Shown: piece by piece, positions 1 through 50,194 of the stretch
Position numbering within the stretch: position 1 is the first letter of the stretch
How the letters are laid out: every line of letters begins with the position of its first letter
NCBI GenBank assembly: GCA_903854455.1
Contig: CAINWJ010000010.1
Coordinates: 1-50,194, forward strand
Length of the DNA stretch: 50,194 nucleotides
Direction of reading: 5' to 3'
Origin: Candidatus Peribacteria bacterium
Lineage (GTDB): Bacteria > Patescibacteriota > Gracilibacteria > Peribacterales > Peribacteraceae
The notes under the pieces: model-generated
Seen by the model: the letters and a program-made list of their open reading frames with translations, nothing else
The model's database searches: none
Told to the model about the DNA's origin: nothing
Translations under genes and position numbers: made by a program

Positions 1-1632
1 GACGAGCTCGCGTTTCTGGATCGTGTGTCGCCTGTGATTGGCGGCAAGAAATTATCGATCCCGCCGCCGACACTTTGTCCGGATGCCAGGCAGCAGCGCA
101 GGCTCACGTTCAGGAATGAGAGCACGTTCTACCACCGTGACTGCAGTCGCTGTGGCAAGCACATGATCTCACTCTATCCGGCGGATGCTCCGTGTCCGGT
201 CTACTGTGAGGCATGCTATTGGAATGGCACATGGGATCCCCTCGCATACGGCCGGGTGTTCGATCCGGCACAATCGTTCTTCGGGCAGTTCAATGAGCTC
301 CAGAAGACGGTTCCGCATCTCTACTTCTCCTCATCAGATTGCGAGAATAGCGAGTACTGCAATCATGCTGCGGGAATGAAGGACTGTTACCTCGTCCATG
401 GCTCCATGCATTCGCAGGACAGCTACTACGGAGTCCGGTACTTCCGCTGCCGCGATTGCTCGGACTGCCTCTTCATCAATGACTGCGAGCTCTGCTACGA
501 AGCGGTGAACTGCGACAACTGCTATGACCTGGCGTACGCATTTCACTGTCAGGATTGTCGCAGCAGCCGCTGGATCCGGCACTGTCACGGTTGTGACAAT
601 CTCCTGTTCTGCGTGAACCGCCGTCAGGCGCGGCATCAGATCCTGAACGTGCAGTATTCCGAGGAGGATTTTCAGCGACTCAGGAAGGAGATTCTTTCTT
701 CTCCGGACATATTGGCAATGCACATTGAACGGTACCGGGCACTGCTTCTGGCTTCGCCCGAGCCGTCCCGCATCGCCGATCAGGCTGAACAATCATCAGG
801 AAATTATCTTCGTCAGTGCAAGGATTGCCGATCCTGCTTCGATGTACAGAAGTGCCAGGATGTCACGTATGGGTACGACGTCGCGTCCATGGCTGACAGC
901 CGCGACATCTACTCGGTCTACGGTCCGGGCGAGCTCTGCTACGAGCTGTACTCGGCATCGATTGCCGTTCATCACACACTCTTCAGTCACGACTGCTGGC
1001 CGTGCGAGGATCTTCTGTACTGCGATCACTGCTTCGGCTGCAAGTACTGCTTCGGCTGTCTCGGGCTCCACAAGCATCAGTACTGCATTCTGAACAAGCA
1101 ATTCACGAAGGAGGAGTATGAACGATTGGTGCCGTTGATTGTTGATTCCATGAACAAGTTTGGCGAGTTCGGTGAATTCTTCCCTGCGCAGTGTTCACCG
1201 TTCGCGTACAACGAGACGTCAGCTCAGGAATACTTCCCGATGCCAATGGAAGAAGTGCTGAAGCATGGATGGCGGTGGCGCGATCAGATGGATGAGAAGC
1301 CGAAGGTCGAACGGACGATTCCCGCAACTCAATTGCCTGCATCCATTCAGCAGACGCCGGACGATATTCTCCATTGGGCAGTGGAATGCGAGGTCACGAA
1401 GCGCCCCTACAGGATTATCAAGCGTGAGCTGGAGTTCTACCGGAAAATGCAGATACCCGTGCCGCGCTTCCATCCCGATGAGCGACACAGGCGGCGGATG
1501 GCGATGCGCAATCCGCGCAAACTCTGGGATCGGACATGTGGGAAATGTGGGAAGGGGATCGCGACGACGTATTCGCCTGAGCGGCAGGAAAAGATTTACT
1601 GCGAGGAATGTTATCTGAAGGAGGTATACTGA
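1..1632 (+). CDS. Cys-rich zinc-ribbon/Cys-repeat protein, array paralog P1 (5' end cut by window edge)
   Basis: Frame 1 is open from base 1 (DELAFLDRVSPVIGGKK...) and aligns with residues about 17 onward of the other paralogs, so the ORF-track start at 25 is internal. The C-terminus ...RTCGKCGKGIATTYSPERQEKIYCEECYLKEVY is shared with P2-P8. Confidence 0.85.
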   Translation, partial: DELAFLDRVSPVIGGKKLSIPPPTLCPDARQQRRLTFRNESTFYHRDCSRCGKHMISLYPADAPCPVYCEACYWNGTWDPLAYGRVFDPAQSFFGQFNELQKTVPHLYFSSSDCENSEYCNHAAGMKDCYLVHGSMHSQDSYYGVRYFRCRDCSDCLFINDCELCYEAVNCDNCYDLAYAFHCQDCRSSRWIRHCHGCDNLLFCVNRRQARHQILNVQYSEEDFQRLRKEILSSPDILAMHIERYRALLLASPEPSRIADQAEQSSGNYLRQCKDCRSCFDVQKCQDVTYGYDVASMADSRDIYSVYGPGELCYELYSASIAVHHTLFSHDCWPCEDLLYCDHCFGCKYCFGCLGLHKHQYCILNKQFTKEEYERLVPLIVDSMNKFGEFGEFFPAQCSPFAYNETSAQEYFPMPMEEVLKHGWRWRDQMDEKPKVERTIPATQLPASIQQTPDDILHWAVECEVTKRPYRIIKRELEFYRKMQIPVPRFHPDERHRRRMAMRNPRKLWDRTCGKCGKGIATTYSPERQEKIYCEECYLKEVY

Positions 1633-1638
1633 CCTCCA

Positions 1639-3321
1639 ATGCAGCGATCTTGCCCCCTCTGCTCGGCCCCCTTCCAGATCACGGACGCGGATCTTGCGTT
1701 CTATGAAAAGGTGAGTCCAAGCTTCAAAGGCAAGAAGGAGCTGATCCCGCCGCCGACCTTGTGTCCGGATTGCCGCGTACAGCGGAGAATGGCATGGCGA
1801 AATGATCGGGTGTTCTATCATAGAAAGTGCGATCTCACCGGAACGGACATTCTCTCCATGTACGCTCCGGATGCGCGGTTTCCCGTCTACAAGCCGGAGG
1901 CATGGCATGGGGACGGATGGGATGATCTGGCACACGGCCGGGACTTTGATTTCTCCAGAACGTTCTTCGATCAGTGGGCTGACCTCCGCGACTGCTCGCC
2001 GCACTGGGCTATGGCACTCTCTAGCTGCGAGAACAGCGACTACTGTAACTACTGCACGGATGAAAAGAACTGCTACATGGATATTGCGGCAGAGCAGAAT
2101 GAGAACTGCTACTACGATCATTTTACGAAAACGTCGAAGGACTGCGTTGACAGTAATTTCGCTTACCACTCCACGCTCTGCTACGAGGTTATTCAGTGCT
2201 ACGGCTGCTACGGCTGCCGCTGGTCACAGTACCTGGAAAACTGCAGCGACTGCACGATGTGCTTCGACTGCAAGGGGTGCCGTCACTGCCTTCTCTGCAC
2301 GAACCAGCGCAACAAGGAATACTGCATCATGAATGAGCAAGTGACGAAGGAAGTCTATGAAGCGAGGTTGGAGGAGCTCCGGCTGTCATCGCATCAGGCA
2401 GTTGAACATCTGAAGACAGTGTGGAAGGACCGCCTGCTCAGCCAGGGCATATTTCGGGACATGTACCTCCTAAACTGCGAAGGATGTTCCGGTAACGACA
2501 TCCAGACATCCAAGAACTGCCTCTCGTGCTTCAATGCAGTTGACTGTGAGGACTGCTCGTACCTCTACGATATCCTCAATGCCAAGGACTGCGCGGACAT
2601 GAACTACTCACTCTACGATCCCGAAGCGGACTATGAAGTTATCTCGACGGTCGGCCTCAAGCACTCGGCGTTCTACCTTACCGGACCGTACAACTCCTAC
2701 TGCTTCTACTCCGAAATGCTCAAGAGTTGCAGCCATTGCTTTGGCTGTGTCGCCCTCAAAAAACGGCAGCACTGTATCCTCAACAAGCAGTACACGAAGG
2801 AGGAGTACGAGGAGCTGTTTCCGAGAATCATCCATCACATGCGCAAGGCGGGGGAGTGGGGCGAGTTCTTCCCCGTGGTTCTATCGCCGCACGGGTACAA
2901 CGAGACTGTGGCAATGGATCATTTCCCACTGACGAAGAGCCAGGCTAAGGAGCGTGGTTGGCGCTGGAAAGACCGCACCGAGGAGACGGCGAAGATAACG
3001 AAGATCATCCCAGCCACGCAATTACCGGATGCCATCCAGGATATTCCAGACGACATTCTCCATTGGGCCATCAACTGTGAGGTGACCGGAAAGCCCTACA
3101 AGATCATCAAGCAGGAACTTGAGTACTATCGACGCATGCAGATTCCGGTTCCCCGTCTCCATCCCGATGAACGACATCGACGAAGGGTGGTTCTCAGTAA
3201 TCCACGCAAGCTCTGGAATCGCACATGCGGGAAATGTCAGAGGCCGATTACGACCAGTTATTCATCGGAGAGACCGGAAAAAGTATTATGCGAGGCGTGC
3301 TATCTGAAGGAAGTGTACTGA
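1639..3321 (+). CDS. Cys-rich zinc-ribbon/Cys-repeat protein, array paralog P2
   Basis: 560-aa ORF. N-terminus is CPLCSAPFQITDADLAFYEKVSP..KKELIPPPTLCPDCRVQRR. There are two Cys-repeat blocks, each ending in a ..YCI(L/M)N.Q.TKE.YE motif. The C-terminal PYKIIKQELEYYRRMQIPVPRLHPDERHRRR..CGKC..CEACY is collinear with all the other paralogs. Confidence 0.9.
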   Translation: MQRSCPLCSAPFQITDADLAFYEKVSPSFKGKKELIPPPTLCPDCRVQRRMAWRNDRVFYHRKCDLTGTDILSMYAPDARFPVYKPEAWHGDGWDDLAHGRDFDFSRTFFDQWADLRDCSPHWAMALSSCENSDYCNYCTDEKNCYMDIAAEQNENCYYDHFTKTSKDCVDSNFAYHSTLCYEVIQCYGCYGCRWSQYLENCSDCTMCFDCKGCRHCLLCTNQRNKEYCIMNEQVTKEVYEARLEELRLSSHQAVEHLKTVWKDRLLSQGIFRDMYLLNCEGCSGNDIQTSKNCLSCFNAVDCEDCSYLYDILNAKDCADMNYSLYDPEADYEVISTVGLKHSAFYLTGPYNSYCFYSEMLKSCSHCFGCVALKKRQHCILNKQYTKEEYEELFPRIIHHMRKAGEWGEFFPVVLSPHGYNETVAMDHFPLTKSQAKERGWRWKDRTEETAKITKIIPATQLPDAIQDIPDDILHWAINCEVTGKPYKIIKQELEYYRRMQIPVPRLHPDERHRRRVVLSNPRKLWNRTCGKCQRPITTSYSSERPEKVLCEACYLKEVY

Positions 3322-3360
3322 AGAGAAAGGCTGTAGCGCGTGCTTATAGCGCGCGGTCAC

Positions 3361-3406
3361 GCGAGCTTCGAGCTCGCGATAGTGCTTGGCGGACGCAACG
3401 TCCGCC
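3361..3406 (+). terminator. two consecutive GC-rich hairpins downstream of P2 (possible terminator or REP-like, no T-tract)
   Basis: GCGAGCT-tcg-AGCTCGC at 3361-3377 and GGCGGACG-caa-CGTCCGCC at 3388-3406, read directly from the sequence. Confidence 0.3.
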
Positions 3407-3443
3407 CGACCGCAGGCCCGAGGCCAGCGCTACGCACTTGTGC

Positions 3444-3449
3444 TACAAT
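3444..3449 (+). promoter_or_regulatory. -10-like TACAAT 8 nt upstream of the trmB-like start (possible leaderless transcript)
   Basis: tgcTACAATcctccactATG. No purine-rich SD between the box and the ATG at 3458. Confidence 0.3.
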
Positions 3450-3457
3450 CCTCCACT

Positions 3458-4249
3458 ATGTTCCGCCGTCTCTCCGAGCTCCTCAGCCTGGCAGGTCTCA
3501 GTGACGATGAAGCACGGTTGTACCTACTGCTCCTGAAATCGGGCAATGCGAGTGCGCCTGAGCTTCAGGCGGCATCTTCAATGAATGTGATGACGGTCTA
3601 CCGCACACTCAAGCGTCTGGAAGATCGTGGTTTGCTCGCAGCATCACCGGTCAATCGCAAAGAGAAGATGTACAAGGCATTGTCTCTGAATGCATTGGTA
3701 AAGAAATTGGAATCGGATGAACGGAAGATTCGGAAATTGCAGGCGAATCTCCGGAAGATGACGCCGTTCCTCAGATATCTCCCAACGGAATCCGAGAAGA
3801 TTTCAGATGAGGATCCGGTTGAATTGCGCGAAGGGCTGGATGCGTTCCGCGAGGAGTATTTGAAGTTGCCCGATCTCTGTACATCGGAATTCCAGTGCCT
3901 GGGGTCCATGCAGAACTATTGGAGAATCGCCGGTATGTCAGACGAGGCACCGGAAGAGATAGGATTCAGGAACAAGCGCTTCAGAAGCGGCATCTTCTCG
4001 TTAACACTCAACACGCCGTCTCCTGAGGCTGAGGTCTTCGCCAAGCGTGATTCGCGTGAGCTTCGGCGGACCAGGATTACCGCTGCATTGCCTATCAAGC
4101 GCGATTACATGGCGTTCACCGACGACCGTGTTTGTCATTTCCTTTGTGATCCTGAGAATCCTCAAGTGATCATCTTCCGTCAGCCGGAGCTTCTGGCGAT
4201 GTACCGTCGACAGTTCCGTTCGATCTGGGATGCGGGAGTGGTGGCGTAG
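3458..4249 (+). CDS. TrmB-family winged-HTH transcriptional regulator (copy 1)
   Basis: MFRRLSELLSLAGLSDDEARLYLLLLKSGNASAPELQAASSMNVMTVYRTLKRLEDRGLL matches the TrmB N-terminal wHTH pattern. I use the ATG at 3458 rather than the ORF-track start at 3386, because the upstream part crosses the hairpin region. Confidence 0.8.
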   Translation: MFRRLSELLSLAGLSDDEARLYLLLLKSGNASAPELQAASSMNVMTVYRTLKRLEDRGLLAASPVNRKEKMYKALSLNALVKKLESDERKIRKLQANLRKMTPFLRYLPTESEKISDEDPVELREGLDAFREEYLKLPDLCTSEFQCLGSMQNYWRIAGMSDEAPEEIGFRNKRFRSGIFSLTLNTPSPEAEVFAKRDSRELRRTRITAALPIKRDYMAFTDDRVCHFLCDPENPQVIIFRQPELLAMYRRQFRSIWDAGVVA

Positions 4250-4333
4250 GTATCTTGGTTTCCGTTCGATTCGTTGGTTCAAATATTTCCTTGATCGTGG
4301 TTGCCTGCAATTCCTTTCCACCCTCTCCTTAGT

Positions 4334-4368
4334 CCTCTCCCTCCCGTCGCGACTCCGGTAGGGAGAGG
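4334..4368. repeat. C-rich/G-rich hairpin element (CCTCTCCCT...AGGGAGAGG), intergenic copy
   Basis: ccaccctctccttagtCCTCTCCCTcccgtcgcgactccggtAGGGAGAGGaatg. Same family as 35616-35654, 36674-36732, 37921-37965 and 50176-50194. Confidence 0.55.
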
Positions 4369-4487
4369 AATGCCTCATTCGGGCATTATTATCACATCAT
4401 CCTGAGATAATTCATTTCCCTCTTTTGGCTTGAGGCTAAGCTTTTCAATTTTTCTAGGAGGCTAGTTGCCTCGCTCTCTCAAAAGCC

Positions 4488-4493
4488 TACAAT
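4488..4493 (+). promoter_or_regulatory. -10-like TACAAT 6 nt upstream of the GTG start of P3
   Basis: ccTACAATtttgtcGTGccctca. No SD in between. Confidence 0.25.
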
Positions 4494-4499
4494 TTTGTC

Positions 4500-6182
4500 G
4501 TGCCCTCATGTGCTCTCTGCCAATCGGCATTCGAAGTTTCCAAGGAGGATCTCGCTTTCCTCGAAAAAATCTCTCCTGATTTCGCAGGCAAGAAGGAGCT
4601 CATCCCGCCTCCGATCTTTTGCCCCGACTGCCGTCAGCAGCGTCGGCTCCTCTGGCGCAATGAATATTGTTTGTATCGACGGACGTGTGATGGTTGCAAG
4701 AAATCGATCATCTCCCAGTACTCCACAGACAAGCCGTTCACCGTGTATTGCCACGAGTGCTGGTGGTCCGACAGGTGGGATCCTCTGAGTCACGGACAAC
4801 CGTTCGATTTCAATCGAACATTTTTTGATCAATTCCGGGCATTGCAACTGAAGGTTCCCAGGATGGCGCTCAATGCCATCTCCAACGAGAACTCGGAGTA
4901 TGTGCACCTCTCCGGATACTGCAAGAACTGCTACCTCCTCTTCGCTGCGGAGTTCGATGAAGACTGTCTCTACGGCAACCAAGTCATCAAATCTCTCGGC
5001 TGCATGGACGCGCTCGATTGCTTCGAGTCCCGGTACTGTTACGAGGTCACGGACGTCGAAAAGTCTCACGATCTCCTGTTTTCCAGCAACTGCAGCAACT
5101 GCTCGGGGTCCATGTTCCTCTTCGACTGCAAAGGATGTTCGGACTGCCTGCTCTCGACGAATCTCCGCAAGAAGACGAACGTCATCCGAAACAAGCAGTG
5201 CAGCCCGGAGGAATTCAGGCGCGAGCGGGAAGCGTTGATGATGCGGATTGCGAAGGGGGAGTTATCGCAGATCAAGGACGAATTTAAGCAGCTGAAGGCG
5301 CAGAGTATTCACAGGTCGCAGGAAGCCGTGAACTGTGAAGCCTCGACTGGCGATTACCTCAAGAACTGCAAGAACGTGCGTCACTGTTTCGATCTCTCCT
5401 ACGGTGAAGACAGTGCATTCGTTTACACCGGTTTCAAGGTGAAGGATCTGATGGACGTGTGCCACACGACGGAGGCGGAGCTGGGGTATGAGGGGATCAG
5501 CTTCGGCTATGGATCGTACAATGCCATCTGCACGCATGGCTCCTGGAGCGGCAAGAACCTCCTCTACTGCGATACGGCACAGGCCGGCTGCTCCGATCTC
5601 TTCGGCTGCGTGATGATGAAGCAGCAGAAGCACTGCATTCTGAATAAGCAGTATTCCAGGGAGGAGTACGAGCAGCTTGTTGCGAAGATTATTACTCACA
5701 TGCGCGCCTCCGGTGAATTCGGATTATTCTTTGCGCCAGAATGTGCGCCGTTTGGGTACAACGAGACGACGGCGAATATTTATTTTCCAATGACGCGGGA
5801 AGCAGCGGTTGCCAAAGGATTCCCCTGGAAAGATGGCGAGGAGGAGATGCCGGCGGTAGCCAAGGTGATCAACGCCGTCGATCTTCCTTCAGACATTCGC
5901 GAAGTCCCGGACGACATCCTCGGCTGGGCCGTCACCTGCGAAGCGACCAAGCGACCATTTAGAGTCGTCAAGCAGGAGCTGCAGTTCTACCGTGACCATG
6001 GTTTGCCCATTCCACACTTTCATCCTGACGAGCGGCACCGGCGGAGGATGGCGCTTAGGAATCCGCGGAAGGTGTGGTCACGGACATGCATGAAGTGTCA
6101 GAAGGACATCGAAACAACCTATTCTCCAGAGAGGAAGGAGAAGGTGTTTTGTGAGGAGTGCTATCTGGGGGAAGTGTATTGA
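4500..6182 (+). CDS. Cys-rich zinc-ribbon/Cys-repeat protein, array paralog P3 (GTG start)
   Basis: (M)PSCALCQSAFEVSKEDLAFLEKISPDFAGKKELIPPPIFCPDCRQQRR... is collinear with the family. The N-terminal module keeps all four distal Cys (RTCDGCKK...VYCHECWW). Confidence 0.9.
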   Translation: MPSCALCQSAFEVSKEDLAFLEKISPDFAGKKELIPPPIFCPDCRQQRRLLWRNEYCLYRRTCDGCKKSIISQYSTDKPFTVYCHECWWSDRWDPLSHGQPFDFNRTFFDQFRALQLKVPRMALNAISNENSEYVHLSGYCKNCYLLFAAEFDEDCLYGNQVIKSLGCMDALDCFESRYCYEVTDVEKSHDLLFSSNCSNCSGSMFLFDCKGCSDCLLSTNLRKKTNVIRNKQCSPEEFRREREALMMRIAKGELSQIKDEFKQLKAQSIHRSQEAVNCEASTGDYLKNCKNVRHCFDLSYGEDSAFVYTGFKVKDLMDVCHTTEAELGYEGISFGYGSYNAICTHGSWSGKNLLYCDTAQAGCSDLFGCVMMKQQKHCILNKQYSREEYEQLVAKIITHMRASGEFGLFFAPECAPFGYNETTANIYFPMTREAAVAKGFPWKDGEEEMPAVAKVINAVDLPSDIREVPDDILGWAVTCEATKRPFRVVKQELQFYRDHGLPIPHFHPDERHRRRMALRNPRKVWSRTCMKCQKDIETTYSPERKEKVFCEECYLGEVY

Positions 6183-6271
6183 TCAGGCTGCGGATAAGGC
6201 GTTTGCATAAATACATAAATAAGTATACAATATAACTTGATATAAACAGCATATTTCAGCGCTTACTTCCT

Positions 6272-7558
6272 ATGGTTACTATCAAAAAAATAAATAAGAA
6301 GCACGCACGGCATGTCATCGAGCAATCGATGGCTGCTTTGGGTTTGGAGATGAACATGAAAACTGATCCGGCGATTATTGAGAGTCTCCTTCGCGAGATG
6401 AGGCTTGATGACTTTAAAACAGACTTTGCTCCAATGAAGAAATTTTTCGCAGACGCTCTTGCTAAACCGCAAAGCTTACGACCGATGTTTGAAAGTATTA
6501 AGCAGGGGATCGTGAATAAGCATCCTGCAATTGTTGAGTTTGCTGAACTGGCTCTGTCGAAGAAATGGTTTGCATCTTCTGCTCATATTCAGAGAGCGGC
6601 TCATGTCGCTTATGTTCTCGAGGCGATGACTGCAGCGATGTGCAATAGCCACAAGTTCTTCCTTGAAGCTGAAGATTATTTACGTGCGCAAGAAGTGATG
6701 TGTGGCTTAGATCATGAGCACTTATTACGTTCATTCTTGAGCATGCAACGCGTGACTCATAGCGTTTTTGAAACCATGAAGGCCCTATCTCTTGACCCTG
6801 CAATGATTATTCCGAGAACCCGTTGCGGTTTGGAGAATGCAAGAATAGGCAAGGTGCAGCTCCGTGAACTCAGCAGGAAAGAAAAGCTTAATTTTGTTGA
6901 GCGCAAGCTATTATCGACTGCCGAAAAAAATGACCTTGAACATTCACTTAAGTTAGTTGGTATCAATTTGTTTGAGGCAGGTATCACCGAATACAAAAAA
7001 GGATTTCAGGATAATGCCTTTTGTGCACATGCTCTAAATGAAGTCATCCAGAAAACTCCTCCCGCTGTTCTATTTAAAGCTCGTCATATCATACCTCTTT
7101 ACTCTTCGCAGTCTTTCTATGAGACTCTCTGCACGAGCGATAATCATTTTCCCGTGTTCGGTTTTAGTCAGGATTGGATGAGTGTGTACGTCACTTGGAA
7201 TTTAGCATTTGTGTTGGGCGATCTTGATGAATTGGATTTACTCATTCCGAAATTACTTATTCCGTCAGTTCTCAATGCAAAAAGTGAGCATTTTCTCGGT
7301 GCAAGAGGCATTGCTCTTTGGCTCTCCATTAACAATTTCCTATTCAGATTGAGGGATCATGCAGGCACGGTTTCAGGACCGGAGAACAAACAAGAGATGG
7401 CAAATGCTTGGGGTGCAATTAACAAAAAATATGCCACCGCCTTTATGCAAAATGAGACACATGAAACACGACAGCATTTCTTAAGTGAATTTCACCACTT
7501 CTTCTCCTTTCCCGTTTTCCATTTTTTAAAACTTCTGGGCGATTTCGCAATTCGTTGA
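6272..7558 (+). CDS. hypothetical protein (428 aa) in an AT-rich island, no motif recognised
   Basis: Long ORF in a stretch that is visibly more AT-rich than the flanks. No antisense competitor of similar length. No family recognised by eye. Confidence 0.6.
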   Translation: MVTIKKINKKHARHVIEQSMAALGLEMNMKTDPAIIESLLREMRLDDFKTDFAPMKKFFADALAKPQSLRPMFESIKQGIVNKHPAIVEFAELALSKKWFASSAHIQRAAHVAYVLEAMTAAMCNSHKFFLEAEDYLRAQEVMCGLDHEHLLRSFLSMQRVTHSVFETMKALSLDPAMIIPRTRCGLENARIGKVQLRELSRKEKLNFVERKLLSTAEKNDLEHSLKLVGINLFEAGITEYKKGFQDNAFCAHALNEVIQKTPPAVLFKARHIIPLYSSQSFYETLCTSDNHFPVFGFSQDWMSVYVTWNLAFVLGDLDELDLLIPKLLIPSVLNAKSEHFLGARGIALWLSINNFLFRLRDHAGTVSGPENKQEMANAWGAINKKYATAFMQNETHETRQHFLSEFHHFFSFPVFHFLKLLGDFAIR

Positions 7559-47262: not shown

Positions 47263-47973
47263 TTATGAGCCGAACCTTCTTTTCCGTCTCTCGAATTCAT
47301 TCACCGCTTCATCCAGATCTTTTGGTCCGACGTCGGGAAATAGTTTCGGTGAGAAGATCCACTCGGCGTACGTCGACTGCCAGAGGAAAAAGTTGCTGGT
47401 GCGTTGCTCACCGGAGGAACGGAAGATGAGGTCGATATCAGGTAATTCCGGATGATCAAGATTCGGTCGGATGAAGTCGCTGGTCGGCTGGTCGGCTGGT
47501 CGGCTGGTCGCTTTCGTCGTCGCACGGAGGATCTCATCTTTGCCGCCGTAATCGACAGCCAGGTGCAGTGTGAATTCCATTTGATCTTTCGTCAGCTCCT
47601 CCGTTTCTTCGATCAATTTCTTGAGTGATGGCGGGATGCGGTCACGGCGGCCGGAGTGCACGAAGCGGGTTTTTTCTTTCAAGAATGTCTCACCTTCCTT
47701 TCGCAAATACTTCTCGAGCATCCCCATCAACATTTCGATCTCTTTCGGATCGCGTTTCCAGTTTTCGGTCGAGAAGCACCAGACGGTCAGCACCGAGATC
47801 CGCGGATCCTTGCGGCACCACTCGGTCAACGTGCGGAAATTTTCTACTGCCTGCTCATGGCCTTTCCAGACACTCTCGAACTTGTGCGCTTTCGCCCAGC
47901 GGCGGTTGCCGTCGGGGATGATGGCGAGGTGGAGGCGGGAAAGAGTTGGTGGATGAGTCGACATGCTCGGCAA
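47263..47973 (-). CDS. uppS: cis-prenyltransferase (undecaprenyl diphosphate synthase family)
   Basis: HLAIIPDGNRRWAK...FSTENWKR...DLIFRSSGEQRTSNFFLWQSTYAEW. Confidence 0.92.
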   Translation of the reverse strand: MPSMSTHPPTLSRLHLAIIPDGNRRWAKAHKFESVWKGHEQAVENFRTLTEWCRKDPRISVLTVWCFSTENWKRDPKEIEMLMGMLEKYLRKEGETFLKEKTRFVHSGRRDRIPPSLKKLIEETEELTKDQMEFTLHLAVDYGGKDEILRATTKATSRPADQPTSDFIRPNLDHPELPDIDLIFRSSGEQRTSNFFLWQSTYAEWIFSPKLFPDVGPKDLDEAVNEFERRKRRFGS

Positions 47974-48037: not shown

Positions 48038-48559
48038 CTATCCATTTAAAATTTTCAGGAGTCCAATCTTCAGCCAGAGAGCGAAGAAGTCGGGATACTT
48101 CTCGAAATCCCGCAGGAGACTCTGTACATCGATCCATTTCCACGCTTTGACTTCATCGGGATCGGGACGAACAACGACGCCTTTCTCCGCTGTTCCGATC
48201 AATGTCGTGACATGCTCATACTCACTACCTTTTCCATCCGGATCTTTCGCCTGGTAGACGAAGGACGGACCGGGTGTGAGTGGGACTGAGAATCCCAGTT
48301 CTTCCTTGAGCCTCCTCTGACCGGCGGCAATCATTTCCTCCTGCTCATAAGGATGGCTACAGCACGTATTCGCCCAGATTTCCGGGAACAACATCTTCTT
48401 GGTGCTGCGCTGCTGGATGATCAGCGAGGATTTGTCGGGAGAGAAGACATACACCGAGAATGCGCGGTGCAACTTCCCTTCACCGGTGTGCGCGGCGACG
48501 ATCTCCATCGTTCCGGTTTGATGATTCTGCTCGTCGACAAGGATGACGTGGCGGGACAT
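48038..48559 (-). CDS. idi: isopentenyl-diphosphate delta-isomerase, type 1 (Nudix)
   Basis: HRAFSVYVF...WANTCCSHP...AAGQRRLKEELG...YEHV. Confidence 0.9.
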   Translation of the reverse strand: MSRHVILVDEQNHQTGTMEIVAAHTGEGKLHRAFSVYVFSPDKSSLIIQQRSTKKMLFPEIWANTCCSHPYEQEEMIAAGQRRLKEELGFSVPLTPGPSFVYQAKDPDGKGSEYEHVTTLIGTAEKGVVVRPDPDEVKAWKWIDVQSLLRDFEKYPDFFALWLKIGLLKILNG

Positions 48560-48563
48560 GGAC

Positions 48564-48656
48564 GGAATGTAGAATTGAAAATGTAAAATGTAAAATTACG
48601 CTACTCCGAAAGCAGCAAAGATCATTCTACATTTTACATTCTACATTTTACATTTC
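48564..48656. repeat. heptamer-array hairpin H6
   Basis: Left arm GGAATGTAGAATTGAAAATGTAAAATGTAAAAT at 48564-48596. Loop TACGCTACTCCGAAAGCAGCAAAGAT. Right arm CATTCTACATTTTACATTCTACATTTTACATTTC at 48623-48656. Confidence 0.85.
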
Positions 48657-48745
48657 GTCGGTTGACACTCTCTCCGATTGTCGCGTTGCCCGCTGCCTTC
48701 TCAAGATTTTTTCTGTATGATCCGTCTAATATTCCCACCACCACT

Positions 48746-49369
48746 ATGATTCATCATCTTCGGTTCCGGAAGCATCATATGGCTATAGCACTTTCCGGAC
48801 TTGCATTCTCTGGGATGGTACTTTCAGTATCGTGGAGCGGGCTCTTCCCTCCACCGTCGAACTTTGGAGGAGTGCCTGTGGCTCTTGCTGCCACTGCAGC
48901 CGGACAGCCGACGTATGAGATGTTCTTGAAGATGGATGGCATCGAAGGCAGTGCGACCGATGATAAGCATCGTGCGCAGATCGTCGTTGATTCCTATGCC
49001 TGGAAGGTCGCCCGTGCAGTTAGCGGTAAGCAGGCCGGGTTTGATTCGTTCGTCGTCACGATGCCTGCAAGCAAAGCATCCCCCGATCTGTTTCTGACGA
49101 CGGCAGCCGGACTCAAAGTCGCCAAGGCGGTGCTGGCCGTGCGCAAGTCCGGTGGCGCGGAAGACTTTCTCAAATGGACGCTCACGGACGTGCGCATCAC
49201 ATCACTGCAGACTGTCGGAAACACCCATGGTGACGGTGTGCAGGATCAGCTGACCCTGAGTGTCGGAAAAGTGGAGATGGAGTACCGCGAACCGTTGCCC
49301 AATGGATCATTCGGACCGGTGTTGAAGAAAGGCTGGGACATCCGGACGGGGAGTGCGGTGCAGTACTGA
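48746..49369 (+). CDS. Hcp-family (T6SS tube protein-like) protein with an N-terminal hydrophobic signal/anchor extension
   Basis: YEMFLKMDGIEGSATDDKHRAQIVVDSYAW...AVLAVRKSGGAEDFLKWTLTDVRITS...LTLSVGKVEMEYREP...KKGWDIRTG is collinear with Hcp1 as I recall it. It is preceded by MAIALSGLAFSGMVLSVSW. The start could be 48746 or 48779. Confidence 0.75.
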   Translation: MIHHLRFRKHHMAIALSGLAFSGMVLSVSWSGLFPPPSNFGGVPVALAATAAGQPTYEMFLKMDGIEGSATDDKHRAQIVVDSYAWKVARAVSGKQAGFDSFVVTMPASKASPDLFLTTAAGLKVAKAVLAVRKSGGAEDFLKWTLTDVRITSLQTVGNTHGDGVQDQLTLSVGKVEMEYREPLPNGSFGPVLKKGWDIRTGSAVQY

Positions 49370-49465: not shown

Positions 49466-50194
49466 TCATTTCCCCGATGTTCCCATTGCCCCAATCATCG
49501 CACGCAACGTTAGGATCGGGTGAGCCAGGCAGAATTTTTTGATTGCGCCGCTCCCCGATGCGCTCACCGGTTGACCTTCTCTCCGTTTGGCAAAATACAA
49601 GCGGATCATGTCGCTCAGTGCCCGGACGACTGCTTCTTTGCCGATGGATTGTTCATGTGCCGGCAGCGCATTGGCTGTCATCCAGAGTGTTTCAAATCGT
49701 TCGAATGCGCCGCGACCGAGGCGCTGGTTCACCGCACTCATTCCTGCAGGGTGAACGCGGAACGCTCCCAGATCTTCCGGCAGGTAGACGAAGCCGGCGC
49801 GCAGCAGACAGCGTGCCCAGTATTCGCAGTCCAGGCACTGCACCATCGATTCATTGAATGGTCCGACTGATTCCATGAGTGATCTCCGCAGCACAACGAA
49901 ACTCGGTTCACCGATGACGTTGGGCTTCAGTCCACGTTCCAGCCACTCCATCAGGAATGCATGTCCATGATATCCGGGAGACAGCCACTCACTCTTGTTC
50001 TTCTTCAGCTCATCGTAGAGCGGGATCGTCGGGACGTTGCCTTCCGAGAGGTACGTGTGTTCCGCAGCGCTGAATCCGGCGCGGGGCTCTAGGTCCAGAG
50101 CCTTGATCGATTCCTCCAGGAACCGGGGTGACCAGAGGTCATCGTGGAAGAGGAAGGAGATGTATTCCGCTTCCTCCCTCACCCCTAGCCCCTC
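49466..50194 (-). CDS. family 2 glycosyltransferase, C-terminal part (5' end beyond the window edge)
   Basis: The frame stays open to the window edge (EGLGVREEAEYISFLFHDDLW, the GT2 DxD region). The ORF-track start at 50182 is an internal GTG. Confidence 0.7.
   Translation of the reverse strand, partial: EGLGVREEAEYISFLFHDDLWSPRFLEESIKALDLEPRAGFSAAEHTYLSEGNVPTIPLYDELKKNKSEWLSPGYHGHAFLMEWLERGLKPNVIGEPSFVVLRRSLMESVGPFNESMVQCLDCEYWARCLLRAGFVYLPEDLGAFRVHPAGMSAVNQRLGRGAFERFETLWMTANALPAHEQSIGKEAVVRALSDMIRLYFAKRREGQPVSASGSGAIKKFCLAHPILTLRAMIGAMGTSGK

What the first reader, a model, noticed from the sequence alone, without database searches (positions are those of the whole stretch)
48746..49369. 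Orphan Hcp-like protein with an N-terminal signal/anchor sequence and no other T6SS genes nearby
The C-terminal ~165 aa are collinear with Hcp tube proteins (MFLKMDGIEGSATDDKHRAQIVVDSYAW ... RKSGGAEDFLKWTLTDVRITS ... KKGWDIRTG). Canonical Hcp is cytoplasmic and starts directly at this domain. Here it is preceded by ~45-55 aa containing a hydrophobic segment (MAIALSGLAFSGMVLSVSW) and a Pro/Ala-rich linker, which implies Sec-dependent export or membrane anchoring. No TssB/C, VgrG, TssM or similar gene lies in the window. This suggests an Hcp fold recruited to a T6SS-independent, extracytoplasmic role.
Basis: partly seen in the sequence, partly recalled or inferred. Interest (0 to 1): 0.6.

Follow-up and report, generated by a model that had tools for sequence, protein, structure and literature searches.

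The report
Exported Hcp tube-fold protein, no T6SS
A tiny uncultivated groundwater bacterium (Peribacteraceae, CPR) with no detectable type VI secretion machine keeps a full copy of that machine's tube protein Hcp behind a conserved membrane-export leader, so the tube fold probably has a second, undescribed job outside the cell membrane.

Summary
Window 48746-49369 (+) encodes 207 aa. Residues 56-202 are a complete Hcp/TssD domain (Pfam PF05638, E 4.6e-21; AlphaFold model matches solved Hcp1 structures, TM 0.80-0.89). The 55 residues before it are a basic stretch, a 19-23-residue hydrophobic helix, a variable spacer and a conserved G-[IV]-P-x-A-x-A motif.

Both refutation tests failed to refute. 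TssB, TssC, TssE, TssF and VgrG were found neither in this genome (88% complete) nor, for TssC and VgrG, in five relatives carrying the gene. TssK, TssM and phage sheath were absent from this genome and four of those relatives (two 99-100% complete). The leader is conserved in all 27 clade members, and some orthologues have no start codon at the domain boundary.

The gene occurs in about a quarter of Peribacteraceae genomes. Where mapped, it usually sits between idi/uppS and dTDP-sugar and glycosyltransferase genes. Related genomes show the empty site.

Most likely it is a Sec-exported, T6SS-independent ring protein of the cell envelope. Export, cleavage and ring formation are inferred, not shown.

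This scan has already flagged exported Hcps on other DNA (Parcubacteria, Gemmatimonadota, Chloroflexota, Saprospiraceae, Nitrososphaera). I found no paper describing them. New lead: Planctomycete proteins with exactly six Hcp repeats.

The parts
48746..49369 (+). CDS of the Hcp-like protein (207 aa plus stop). It is monocistronic, divergent from idi and convergent with the downstream ORF.
   Evidence: Gene callers in public data call the same long form for the orthologues (201-218 aa).
48746..48778 (+). n-region, residues 1-11 (MIHHLRFRKHH), net positive.
   Evidence: The N flank carries more K+R than the C flank in 20 of 21 family members.
48779..48847 (+). Hydrophobic h-region or transmembrane helix, residues 12-34 (MAIALSGLAFSGMVLSVSWSGLF).
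   Evidence: Kyte-Doolittle scan. AlphaFold helix 4-33. A hydrophobic stretch is present in all 27 clade members.
48848..48871 (+). Variable Pro/Gly-rich spacer, residues 35-42. Across the family, 10-20 residues separate the h-region from the AxA motif, and this stretch is poorly conserved.
   Evidence: pLDDT is below 50 for residues 34-42.
48872..48892 (+). Conserved motif V43-P-V-A46-L-A48-A49 (family consensus G-[IV]-P-x-A-[LI]-A-[AK]). It is a candidate signal-peptidase-I type A-x-A site. Cleavage after A48 would leave 159 aa, the size of a canonical Hcp.
   Evidence: A46 and A48 are nearly invariant in alignment A1. An A-x-A lies 6-15 residues before the Hcp fold in 27 of 27 members. Cleavage is inferred, not shown.
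48911..49351 (+). Complete Hcp/TssD-fold domain, residues 56-202.
   Evidence: Pfam PF05638, E 4.6e-21. phmmer against PDB Hcp1/Hcp2 5XHH/5XEU, E 4e-18. AlphaFold pLDDT is 82-95 in all but one 10-residue block of the domain (91-100: 65). Foldseek TM 0.80-0.89 to 5xhh, 8yun, 4tv4 and 1y12.
49211..49237 (+). Clade-specific, nearly invariant hairpin tip T-V-G-N-T-H-G-D-G (residues 156-164) between two long strands. It is a candidate interaction surface.
   Evidence: Invariant and near-invariant columns in A1. Strands E140-159 and E164-172. Canonical Hcps read differently at this position.
48561..48659 (.). Inverted repeat of AATGTAN heptamer arrays (36-nt arms) in the 186-bp divergent intergenic region between idi and the Hcp-like gene. 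It probably lies in the promoter region.
Evidence: I1: 48561-48596 / 48624-48659, 83% complementary.
48038..48559 (-). Context: type 1 IPP isomerase (NUDIX). It is the divergent neighbour in 9 of the 11 related loci clustered.
47263..47973 (-). Context: undecaprenyl-diphosphate synthase (UppS).
   Evidence: Pfam Prenyltransf, E 7.6e-66. Synteny.
49466..50194 (-). Context: convergent ORF cut by the window end, with no Pfam hit on the 242 aa held. In other genera this position holds the NTP-transferase (rfbA-like) gene, then rfbB and three GT4 genes.

Best explanation
The gene encodes a T6SS-independent, extracytoplasmic member of the Hcp fold.

Shown:
- A complete Hcp domain is preceded by a conserved leader: a positively charged n-region, a 15-23-residue hydrophobic helix, a variable spacer and an A-x-A motif.
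- No sheath, baseplate, spike or membrane-complex gene was found in this genome or in close relatives that carry the gene.
- In most mapped loci the gene sits at one chromosomal site inside the isoprenoid-carrier and surface-glycan gene cluster. Related genomes show that site empty.

Inferred:
- The leader inserts N-in/C-out through Sec/YidC, so the Hcp domain lies on the outer face of the single membrane of this monoderm-type cell.
- The protein either stays tethered or is released by signal peptidase at A46-L-A48|A49, giving a 159-aa subunit the size of a normal Hcp.
- There it assembles, as Hcp folds do, into six-membered rings. These would serve as a structural or ligand-holding ring in the wall zone, not as a fired projectile.

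The gene is dispensable, being present in about a quarter of family genomes. It is an accessory envelope component, not a core one.
For: - Fold and family.
- Leader: conserved in 16 database homologues and 27 clade members. Positive-inside bias in 20 of 21. In the closest pair, pN 0.41 is below pS 0.73 in the leader. Orthologues lack a start codon at the domain boundary.
- No T6SS or contractile-tail genes.
- Within the phylum: only 5 of 401 CPR genomes have any Hcp domain, and those I read (L028, L031) also carry N-terminal signals.
- Monophyly: the clade has SH-aLRT support 99.
- Fixed site with empty-site relatives.
- Same genome: bona fide extracellular Cys-rich giant proteins use the same layout of anchor, spacer and IP-motif.
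- Broader class: 42 of 69 single-domain proteins among the 150 best hits in 1.84 billion representatives have hydrophobic N-terminal extensions, one of them from Chloroflexota.
- Ring logic outside the cytoplasm: 42 of the 150 have exactly six Hcp repeats, some with dockerin, Ig-like and 'Planctomycete extracellular' modules. One six-repeat protein models with pTM 0.81.
Against: - No experiment, transcript or peptide supports export.
- The A-x-A motif lies 10-20 residues beyond the h-region, farther than in ordinary signal peptides, so cleavage is uncertain.
- The window protein's own h-region is the least hydrophobic of its clade (KD 1.98).
- Hexamer formation was not modelled.
- The neighbourhood link to glycan genes is positional only. 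The gene is on the opposite strand and in no operon.
- The genome is 88% complete.
- The Planctomycete genome with a six-repeat Hcp does have TssC, so those proteins are not proof of T6SS independence.
Confidence: 0.7

Rival explanations
1. Exported effector sponge or decoy. The ring sits in the wall zone and captures incoming Hcp-dependent toxins, or other small proteins, fired by neighbouring T6SS-armed bacteria, using the lumen that cytoplasmic Hcp uses to chaperone effectors.
For: It has the same topology and T6SS-less context as the best explanation. It is accessory and patchy, as conflict genes tend to be (24 of 84 genera). The strongly conserved hairpin TVGNTHGDG suggests a binding surface.
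Against: There is no neighbouring toxin or immunity gene, no diversification typical of conflict genes, no PADLOC hit, and a stable housekeeping neighbourhood. The idea is purely speculative.
Confidence: 0.08
2. Inverted topology. The N-terminal helix tethers the protein to the inner face of the membrane, so the Hcp domain is cytoplasmic and membrane-attached.
For: The h-region is long (19-23 aa) and the A-x-A is displaced, so an uncleaved anchor is plausible.
Against: The positive-inside rule predicts N-in/C-out in 20 of 21 sequences. More distant family members have classical cleavable signals (G018 MKKLLGILLG..., G267 ...ARA|Q). The same leader layout occurs on dockerin-like, Cys-rich extracellular proteins of this genome.
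Confidence: 0.07
3. Mis-called start. Translation begins near M59 and yields an ordinary cytoplasmic 149-aa Hcp. The upstream frame is untranslated.
For: M59 begins 'MFLKMDG', like many canonical Hcps. No Shine-Dalgarno motif is evident before either start.
Against: The frame is open and encodes the same n-region, h-region and AxA pattern in 27 of 27 sequences despite sequence turnover. The boundary residue is Leu, Tyr or Ile in some orthologues. Even so, a cytoplasmic Hcp would have no machine to use it.
Confidence: 0.04
4. Functionless relic of a horizontally acquired T6SS or phage-tail gene that is drifting towards loss.
For: Distribution is patchy (about 25% of family genomes). Empty sites occur in relatives. 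One divergent copy has an internal TAA (G473). A weak PHROG hit of unknown function was found.
Against: Frames are intact in 29 of 30 genomes. In the Hcp domain pN 0.12 is far below pS 0.69. Invariant motifs persist across genera. The clade is monophyletic at one site. There are no phage genes nearby, no relatives in viral contigs, and only poor structural matches to phage tubes (TM 0.3-0.58).
Confidence: 0.04

Closest known systems
T6SS inner-tube protein Hcp/TssD (e.g. P. aeruginosa Hcp1 PA0085, PDB 1Y12; Salmonella Hcp1/Hcp2, PDB 5XHH/5XEU)
   Same: It has the same domain from end to end (residues 56-202 align to 2-158 of 161) and 25-31% identity. It shares the motifs (D)MFLK.DGI.G.S.D.KH, KASP.LF and DFLKW.LTD, and the same beta-barrel fold (TM 0.80-0.89).
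   Different: - It carries a 55-residue export or anchor leader.
- It falls below the NCBIfam TIGR03344 cut-off (25.7 against 58.9 bits).
- It has a shorter loop, lacking the Gly-rich insert between the second and third strands.
- It has a clade-specific GNTHGDG hairpin.
- The host genome has no sheath, baseplate, spike or membrane complex and is of a monoderm-type lineage.
Specialised ('evolved') Hcps with C-terminal toxin extensions (Hcp-ET; from my own knowledge, paper not held in the library)
   Same: An Hcp domain with an added segment that changes what the protein does.
   Different: In those proteins the extension is a C-terminal toxin and the protein is still fired by a T6SS. Here the extension is N-terminal, is a membrane-targeting leader, and no T6SS exists.
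Exported Hcp proteins flagged earlier in this scan and seen in my own search (Parcubacteria, Gemmatimonadota, Chloroflexota, Saprospiraceae, Nitrososphaera). I found them described in no paper.
   Same: An N-terminal signal followed by a complete Hcp domain, as an orphan gene. In my search, 42 of the 69 single-domain proteins among the 150 best hits have this form.
   Different: The Peribacteraceae clade is its own well-supported branch (SH-aLRT 99). It has a long signal-anchor, a spacer and a conserved G-I-P-x-A-x-A motif instead of a short classical signal peptide, and a fixed site between idi and rfbA-like genes.
Planctomycete proteins with six tandem Hcp domains (e.g. Pirellulaceae SH467, 1092 aa; annotated only as 'Hcp')
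   Same: The Hcp fold is combined with extracellular sorting and adhesion modules (Planc_extracel, dockerin, Big_13). Six repeats match the ring stoichiometry expected for the single-domain protein.
   Different: They are single-chain, 1000-3600 aa, and belong to another phylum. The SH467 genome does encode TssC elsewhere, so independence from T6SS is not established for them.
Phage tail tube proteins (T4 gp19-like, Pfam Phage_tube families)
   Same: A distantly related fold, and ring and tube assembly.
   Different: The structural match is much weaker (TM 0.3-0.58, E about 1e-5) than to T6SS Hcp. There is no phage context and no relatives were found in viral contigs.

Membership tests
T6SS tube protein Hcp/TssD | PF05638 T6SS_HCP domain above Pfam's gathering score | tested here: met
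   75.9 bits against 23.5, full profile 1-129.
T6SS tube protein Hcp/TssD | Hcp beta-barrel fold | tested here: met
   The AlphaFold model (pLDDT 80, domain mostly 82-95) matches 5xhh, 8yun, 4tv4 and 1y12 with TM 0.80-0.89.
T6SS tube protein Hcp/TssD | Reaches NCBIfam TIGR03344 (TssD) cut-off | tested here: not met
   25.7 bits against a cut-off of 58.9.
T6SS tube protein Hcp/TssD | Genome encodes the machine that uses it (TssB/C sheath, TssE/F/K baseplate, VgrG spike, TssM membrane complex) | tested here: not met
   None was found in G000 (88% complete). TssC and VgrG were also absent from G001, G003 (100% complete), G008, G009 and G013 (99%), and TssK, TssM and sheath from G001, G003, G008 and G013. 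E. coli control genomes were detected each time.
T6SS tube protein Hcp/TssD | Cytoplasmic protein that starts at the fold, with no signal peptide | tested here: not met
   A conserved 55-residue leader with a basic n-region and a hydrophobic helix.
T6SS tube protein Hcp/TssD | Hexameric rings that stack into a tube | not testable with these tools
   No multimer prediction was available. The only indirect hint is the six-repeat relatives.
Sec-type cleavable signal peptide (SPase I) | Positive n-region and hydrophobic h-region | tested here: met
   R6, R8 and K9, with an h-region at 12-34. The same pattern occurs in 27 of 27 relatives.
Sec-type cleavable signal peptide (SPase I) | Small residues at -3 and -1 (A-x-A) a few residues after the h-region | tested here: inconclusive
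   A conserved P-x-A-x-A exists, but 10-20 residues beyond the h-region. No SignalP was available, so a signal anchor and a long c-region are both possible.
Exported (signal-bearing) orphan Hcp class | N-terminal export signal directly preceding a complete Hcp domain, in a genome or neighbourhood without T6SS genes | tested here: met
   Class members appear.
Phage tail tube proteins | Closer in sequence or structure to phage tubes than to Hcp, with a phage gene context | tested here: not met
   BFVD best TM 0.55-0.59 at E 1e-5 or weaker. One PHROG of unknown function matched. No viral-contig relatives. Neighbours are housekeeping genes.

The most novel reading that the evidence does not exclude
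The tail-tube fold has a second, machine-free life. Exported Hcp subunits assemble without sheath or baseplate into rings or short tubes in the wall zone of single-membrane cells (CPR, Chloroflexota, perhaps archaea). There they act as an envelope conduit or cargo-holding ring, for example for glycan or protein passage or for contact with a host cell. The six-repeat Planctomycete proteins would be the same ring made as one chain.
Probability: 0.2. Interest if true: 0.85.

Novelty: new variant of a known kind. Interest (0 to 1): 0.6.

Why it matters
Hcp is treated as a diagnostic marker of type VI secretion, and annotation pipelines name these genes 'T6SS tube protein'. Here a full Hcp is conserved, exported by its own leader, and present in a lineage that shows no trace of the machine and, as far as is known, has no outer membrane.

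- Hcp hits alone should not be read as evidence of a T6SS in metagenomes.
- The ring-forming tail-tube fold has probably been recruited for an extracytoplasmic role that nobody has studied.
- The small Peribacteraceae protein (159 aa after the putative cleavage) and the single-chain six-repeat Planctomycete proteins are tractable objects for structural work on how such rings behave without a sheath.

Tried and rejected
- **dN/dS on the leader:** synonymous sites are saturated beyond the closest pair. Only pN<pS in that pair is usable.
- **Shine-Dalgarno and promoter or terminator scans:** uninformative.
- **Literature:** six full-text searches found no description of signal-bearing or tandem Hcps. 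The Peribacteria genome paper PMC4736985 never mentions Hcp or T6SS. PMC5711352 is not held.
- **Phage origin:** no relatives in viral contigs, a weak PHROG hit of unknown function, and poor BFVD matches. Rejected.
- **Defence-system membership:** no PADLOC hit.
- **Tat signal, lipoprotein, pilin or sortase sorting:** no RR-x-F-L-K motif, no Cys lipobox, no G|F-x-x-x-E and no LPXTG in the sequence by eye. Rejected.
- **Single gain or many:** a two-gene (idi+uppS) tree is too poorly resolved to say.
- **Signal-bearing Hcps as one clade:** on the domain tree they are interleaved with canonical ones and the deep branches are unresolved.
- **Model coordinates:** I could not check ring closure of the six-repeat model or where the GNTHGDG hairpin and the AxA segment lie.
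- **Six-repeat proteins as proof of T6SS independence:** rejected, because Pirellulaceae SH467 has TssC.

Full report
**What is there.**
Window 48746-49369 (+) is an intact ORF of 207 codons.
- Pfam T6SS_HCP covers residues 60-180 across the whole profile (E 4.6e-21, 75.9 bits against a cut-off of 23.5).
- phmmer aligns residues 56-202 to residues 2-158 of the 161-aa Salmonella Hcp1/Hcp2 (E 4e-18).
- An AlphaFold model built on 16 homologues (mean pLDDT 80.4, pTM 0.70) gives a helix at 4-33, a disordered stretch at 34-56 and a beta barrel at 57-198.
- The barrel matches solved Hcp structures (5xhh, 8yun, 4tv4, 1y12) with target-normalised TM 0.80-0.89 and E about 4e-14.
- Phage tail tubes match far worse (TM 0.3-0.58).
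- The stricter NCBIfam TssD model is not reached (25.7 against 58.9 bits).

**The organism and the missing machine.**
The window is contig C10 of a 1.33-Mb, 161-contig genome that is 88% complete. The closest named homologues come from Candidatus Peribacteraceae/Peribacteria MAGs. These are CPR bacteria described as having peptidoglycan, S-layer genes, a sortase and type IV pili. The paper describing them mentions neither Hcp nor T6SS (PMC4736985).
- In the own genome I found one Hcp domain only.
- I found no TssC, TssB, VgrG/Phage_GPD, TssF or TssE/gp25.
- TssC and VgrG were also absent from five relatives that carry the orthologue, one 100% and one 99% complete.
- TssK, TssM and phage-type sheath were absent from the own genome plus four of those relatives.
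- Each search detected the E. coli control genome.
- Across 401 genomes of the phylum, only five have any Hcp domain: four in this family and one elsewhere. The two I read (L028, L031) also start with an N-terminal signal.

**Is the leader real?**
Fifteen database homologues of 201-244 aa share the same architecture. With genome-derived orthologues, that makes 27 clade members.
- All 27 have an N flank rich in K/R and a hydrophobic stretch of 15-23 residues.
- All have 10-20 poorly conserved residues after it.
- All have an A-x-A 6-15 residues before the fold.
- In alignment A1, A46 and A48 are nearly invariant, within a consensus G-[IV]-P-x-A-[LI]-A-[AK].
- K+R averages 4.3 on the N side against 1.5 on the C side, with N>C in 20 of 21 sequences. 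This predicts N-in/C-out.
- In the closest pair (70% identity), the leader shows pN 0.41 against pS 0.73, and the Hcp domain 0.12 against 0.69. More distant pairs are saturated.
- The alternative start M59 is not conserved as a start. The G013 orthologue has CTC (Leu), G018 has TAC (Tyr), and others have Ile. It is the buried hydrophobic residue of the canonical 'DMFLK' motif.

A downstream start is therefore very unlikely. Whether the helix is a cleaved signal or a permanent anchor is open. The P-x-A-x-A motif looks like a signal-peptidase-I c-region, and cleavage after A48 would leave 159 aa, the size of canonical Hcp. However, the motif lies farther from the h-region than usual, and I had no SignalP.

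Seven Cys-rich giant surface proteins of this same genome have the same layout: anchor, a 12-17-residue spacer, then 'DIPLPFG'. This fits a lineage habit for exported proteins.

**Genomic setting and distribution.**
In the 11 Peribacteria loci compared, the usual order is: mevalonate genes, uppS (-), idi (-), Hcp-like (+), an rfbA-like NTP transferase (-), rfbB (+), three GT4 glycosyltransferases (+) (with Pfam labels).
- Not every locus shows every gene. The Hcp-like gene was called in 10 of the 11.
- uppS, idi, the NTP transferase and rfbB each appear in 8-9 of the 11, and uppS and idi also in the window itself.
- The window has uppS and idi in the same place.
- The gene is on the opposite strand to its neighbours, so it is monocistronic. 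The link to envelope-glycan genes is positional only.
- In 30 genera sampled through idi, six have the Hcp-like gene next to idi. In at least five of the others, rfbA directly abuts idi. That is the empty site.
- A profile search of 121 family genomes finds the gene in 30 (24 of 99 high-quality genomes, 24 of 84 genera). The frame is open in 29 of the 30.
- On a domain tree the Peribacteria proteins form one clade with SH-aLRT 99.
- A two-gene host tree is too weak to count gains and losses.

One shared site plus one clade fits an old acquisition followed by repeated loss. This is an accessory gene, not an essential one.

**The wider class.**
A profile search of 1.84 billion cluster representatives gave 11,701 hits.
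- Among the best 150, 69 have one Hcp domain. Of those, 42 have a hydrophobic N-terminal extension, 23 start at the fold like canonical Hcp, and four have another kind of extension.
- The ranking is somewhat biased, because the profile included the leader.
- One signal-bearing member is a Chloroflexota protein (MPZ14832.1). Another sits on a 13.8-kb contig with no T6SS gene within 10 kb.
- Signal-bearing and canonical forms are interleaved on a poorly resolved tree, so I cannot say whether the signal arose once.
- This scan had already flagged exported Hcps in Parcubacteria, Gemmatimonadota, Chloroflexota, Saprospiraceae and a Nitrososphaera archaeon. Those are unchecked AI notes, but my search independently shows the class.
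- Six literature searches found no description of it.

**A lead found in passing.**
Repeat numbers among the 150 best hits are strongly peaked: 1 domain 69, 2 domains 15, 3 domains 9, 4 domains 3, 5 domains 11, 6 domains 42, 7 domains 1.
- Pfam itself counts six T6SS_HCP stretches in several of these proteins, alongside Big_13 and dockerin domains.
- Close homologues include proteins from Pirellulaceae SH467 and a Pirellulales MAG. The latter passes the Pfam 'Planctomycete extracellular' N-terminal motif.
- Repeat 1 of two diverged proteins pairs with repeat 1 (SH-aLRT 97), so the six-repeat layout is old.
- AlphaFold gives one 1068-aa example a pTM of 0.81. This implies a fixed mutual arrangement of the six domains, as expected for a closed pseudo-hexamer. 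I could not inspect the coordinates.
- The SH467 genome does encode TssC 2.3 Mb away, so these proteins are not evidence for T6SS independence.

They do suggest that the six-fold ring is what matters when the fold is combined with extracellular modules.

**Verdict.**
I put about 0.7 on the core reading: a Sec-targeted, extracytoplasmic, T6SS-independent Hcp-fold protein of the Peribacteraceae envelope. I put considerably less, about 0.3, on the specific idea that it forms a structural or cargo-holding ring in the wall zone. Rivals are:
- an effector sponge;
- inverted topology;
- a mis-called start;
- a decaying relic.

Each is at or below 0.08. It is a new variant of a known kind. By fold it is Hcp. 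By four tested features it is not a T6SS tube protein: the TIGR03344 score, the missing machine genes, the N-terminal leader and the cell type.

Noticed in passing
Proteins P0017-P0164; e.g. P0019, P0021, P0025, P0040, P0041, P0288; locus L065 10001-13279: Forty-two of the 150 best Hcp hits have exactly six tandem Hcp domains in one chain (1000-3650 aa). Some carry dockerin, Big_13 and the Pfam 'Planctomycete extracellular' N-terminal motif. Named examples are from Pirellulaceae/Pirellulales. One models with pTM 0.81. They look like single-chain Hcp hexamers and I found them in no paper. The SH467 genome also has TssC elsewhere.
   Followed up: partly
G000 contigs C46 (four tandem genes, 1-7154), C129 5358-8531, C70 1397-2389, C18 10325-12334: Seven paralogous Cys-rich surface proteins (300-1047 aa) share one layout: a basic n-region, an 18-20-aa anchor, a 12-17-aa spacer, then 'DIPLPFG'. 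This resembles the leader of the Hcp-like protein (anchor, spacer, G[IV]PxAxA). It may be a lineage-specific sorting or processing signal.
   Followed up: partly
window 48561-48659: A 36-nt-arm inverted repeat made of AATGTAN heptamer arrays fills the divergent idi/Hcp-like intergenic region.
   Followed up: partly
L031 (G267:C1) 1420-2100 (-): A second type of Peribacteraceae Hcp-like protein (226 aa). It has a classical signal peptide (..ARA|Q), a roughly 90-aa Ser-rich linker and a partial Hcp domain. It lies convergent with, and slightly overlapping, a gene for a 469-aa protein that looks by eye like a glycoside hydrolase (no family search was run).
   Followed up: no
L041, L045, L054, L060, L062 (idi loci of other Peribacteraceae genera): Where the Hcp-like gene is missing, the rfbA-like gene ends 19-210 bp from the idi start, on the same strand. 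This gives a co-directional rfbA-idi-uppS array, which the Hcp-like gene interrupts in the opposite orientation in the genomes that have it.
   Followed up: partly
L033 5813-6829 (+): In one Peribacteria MAG a Beta-lactamase2-family gene sits in the middle of the mevalonate cluster, between the HMG-CoA reductase and diphosphomevalonate decarboxylase genes.
   Followed up: no
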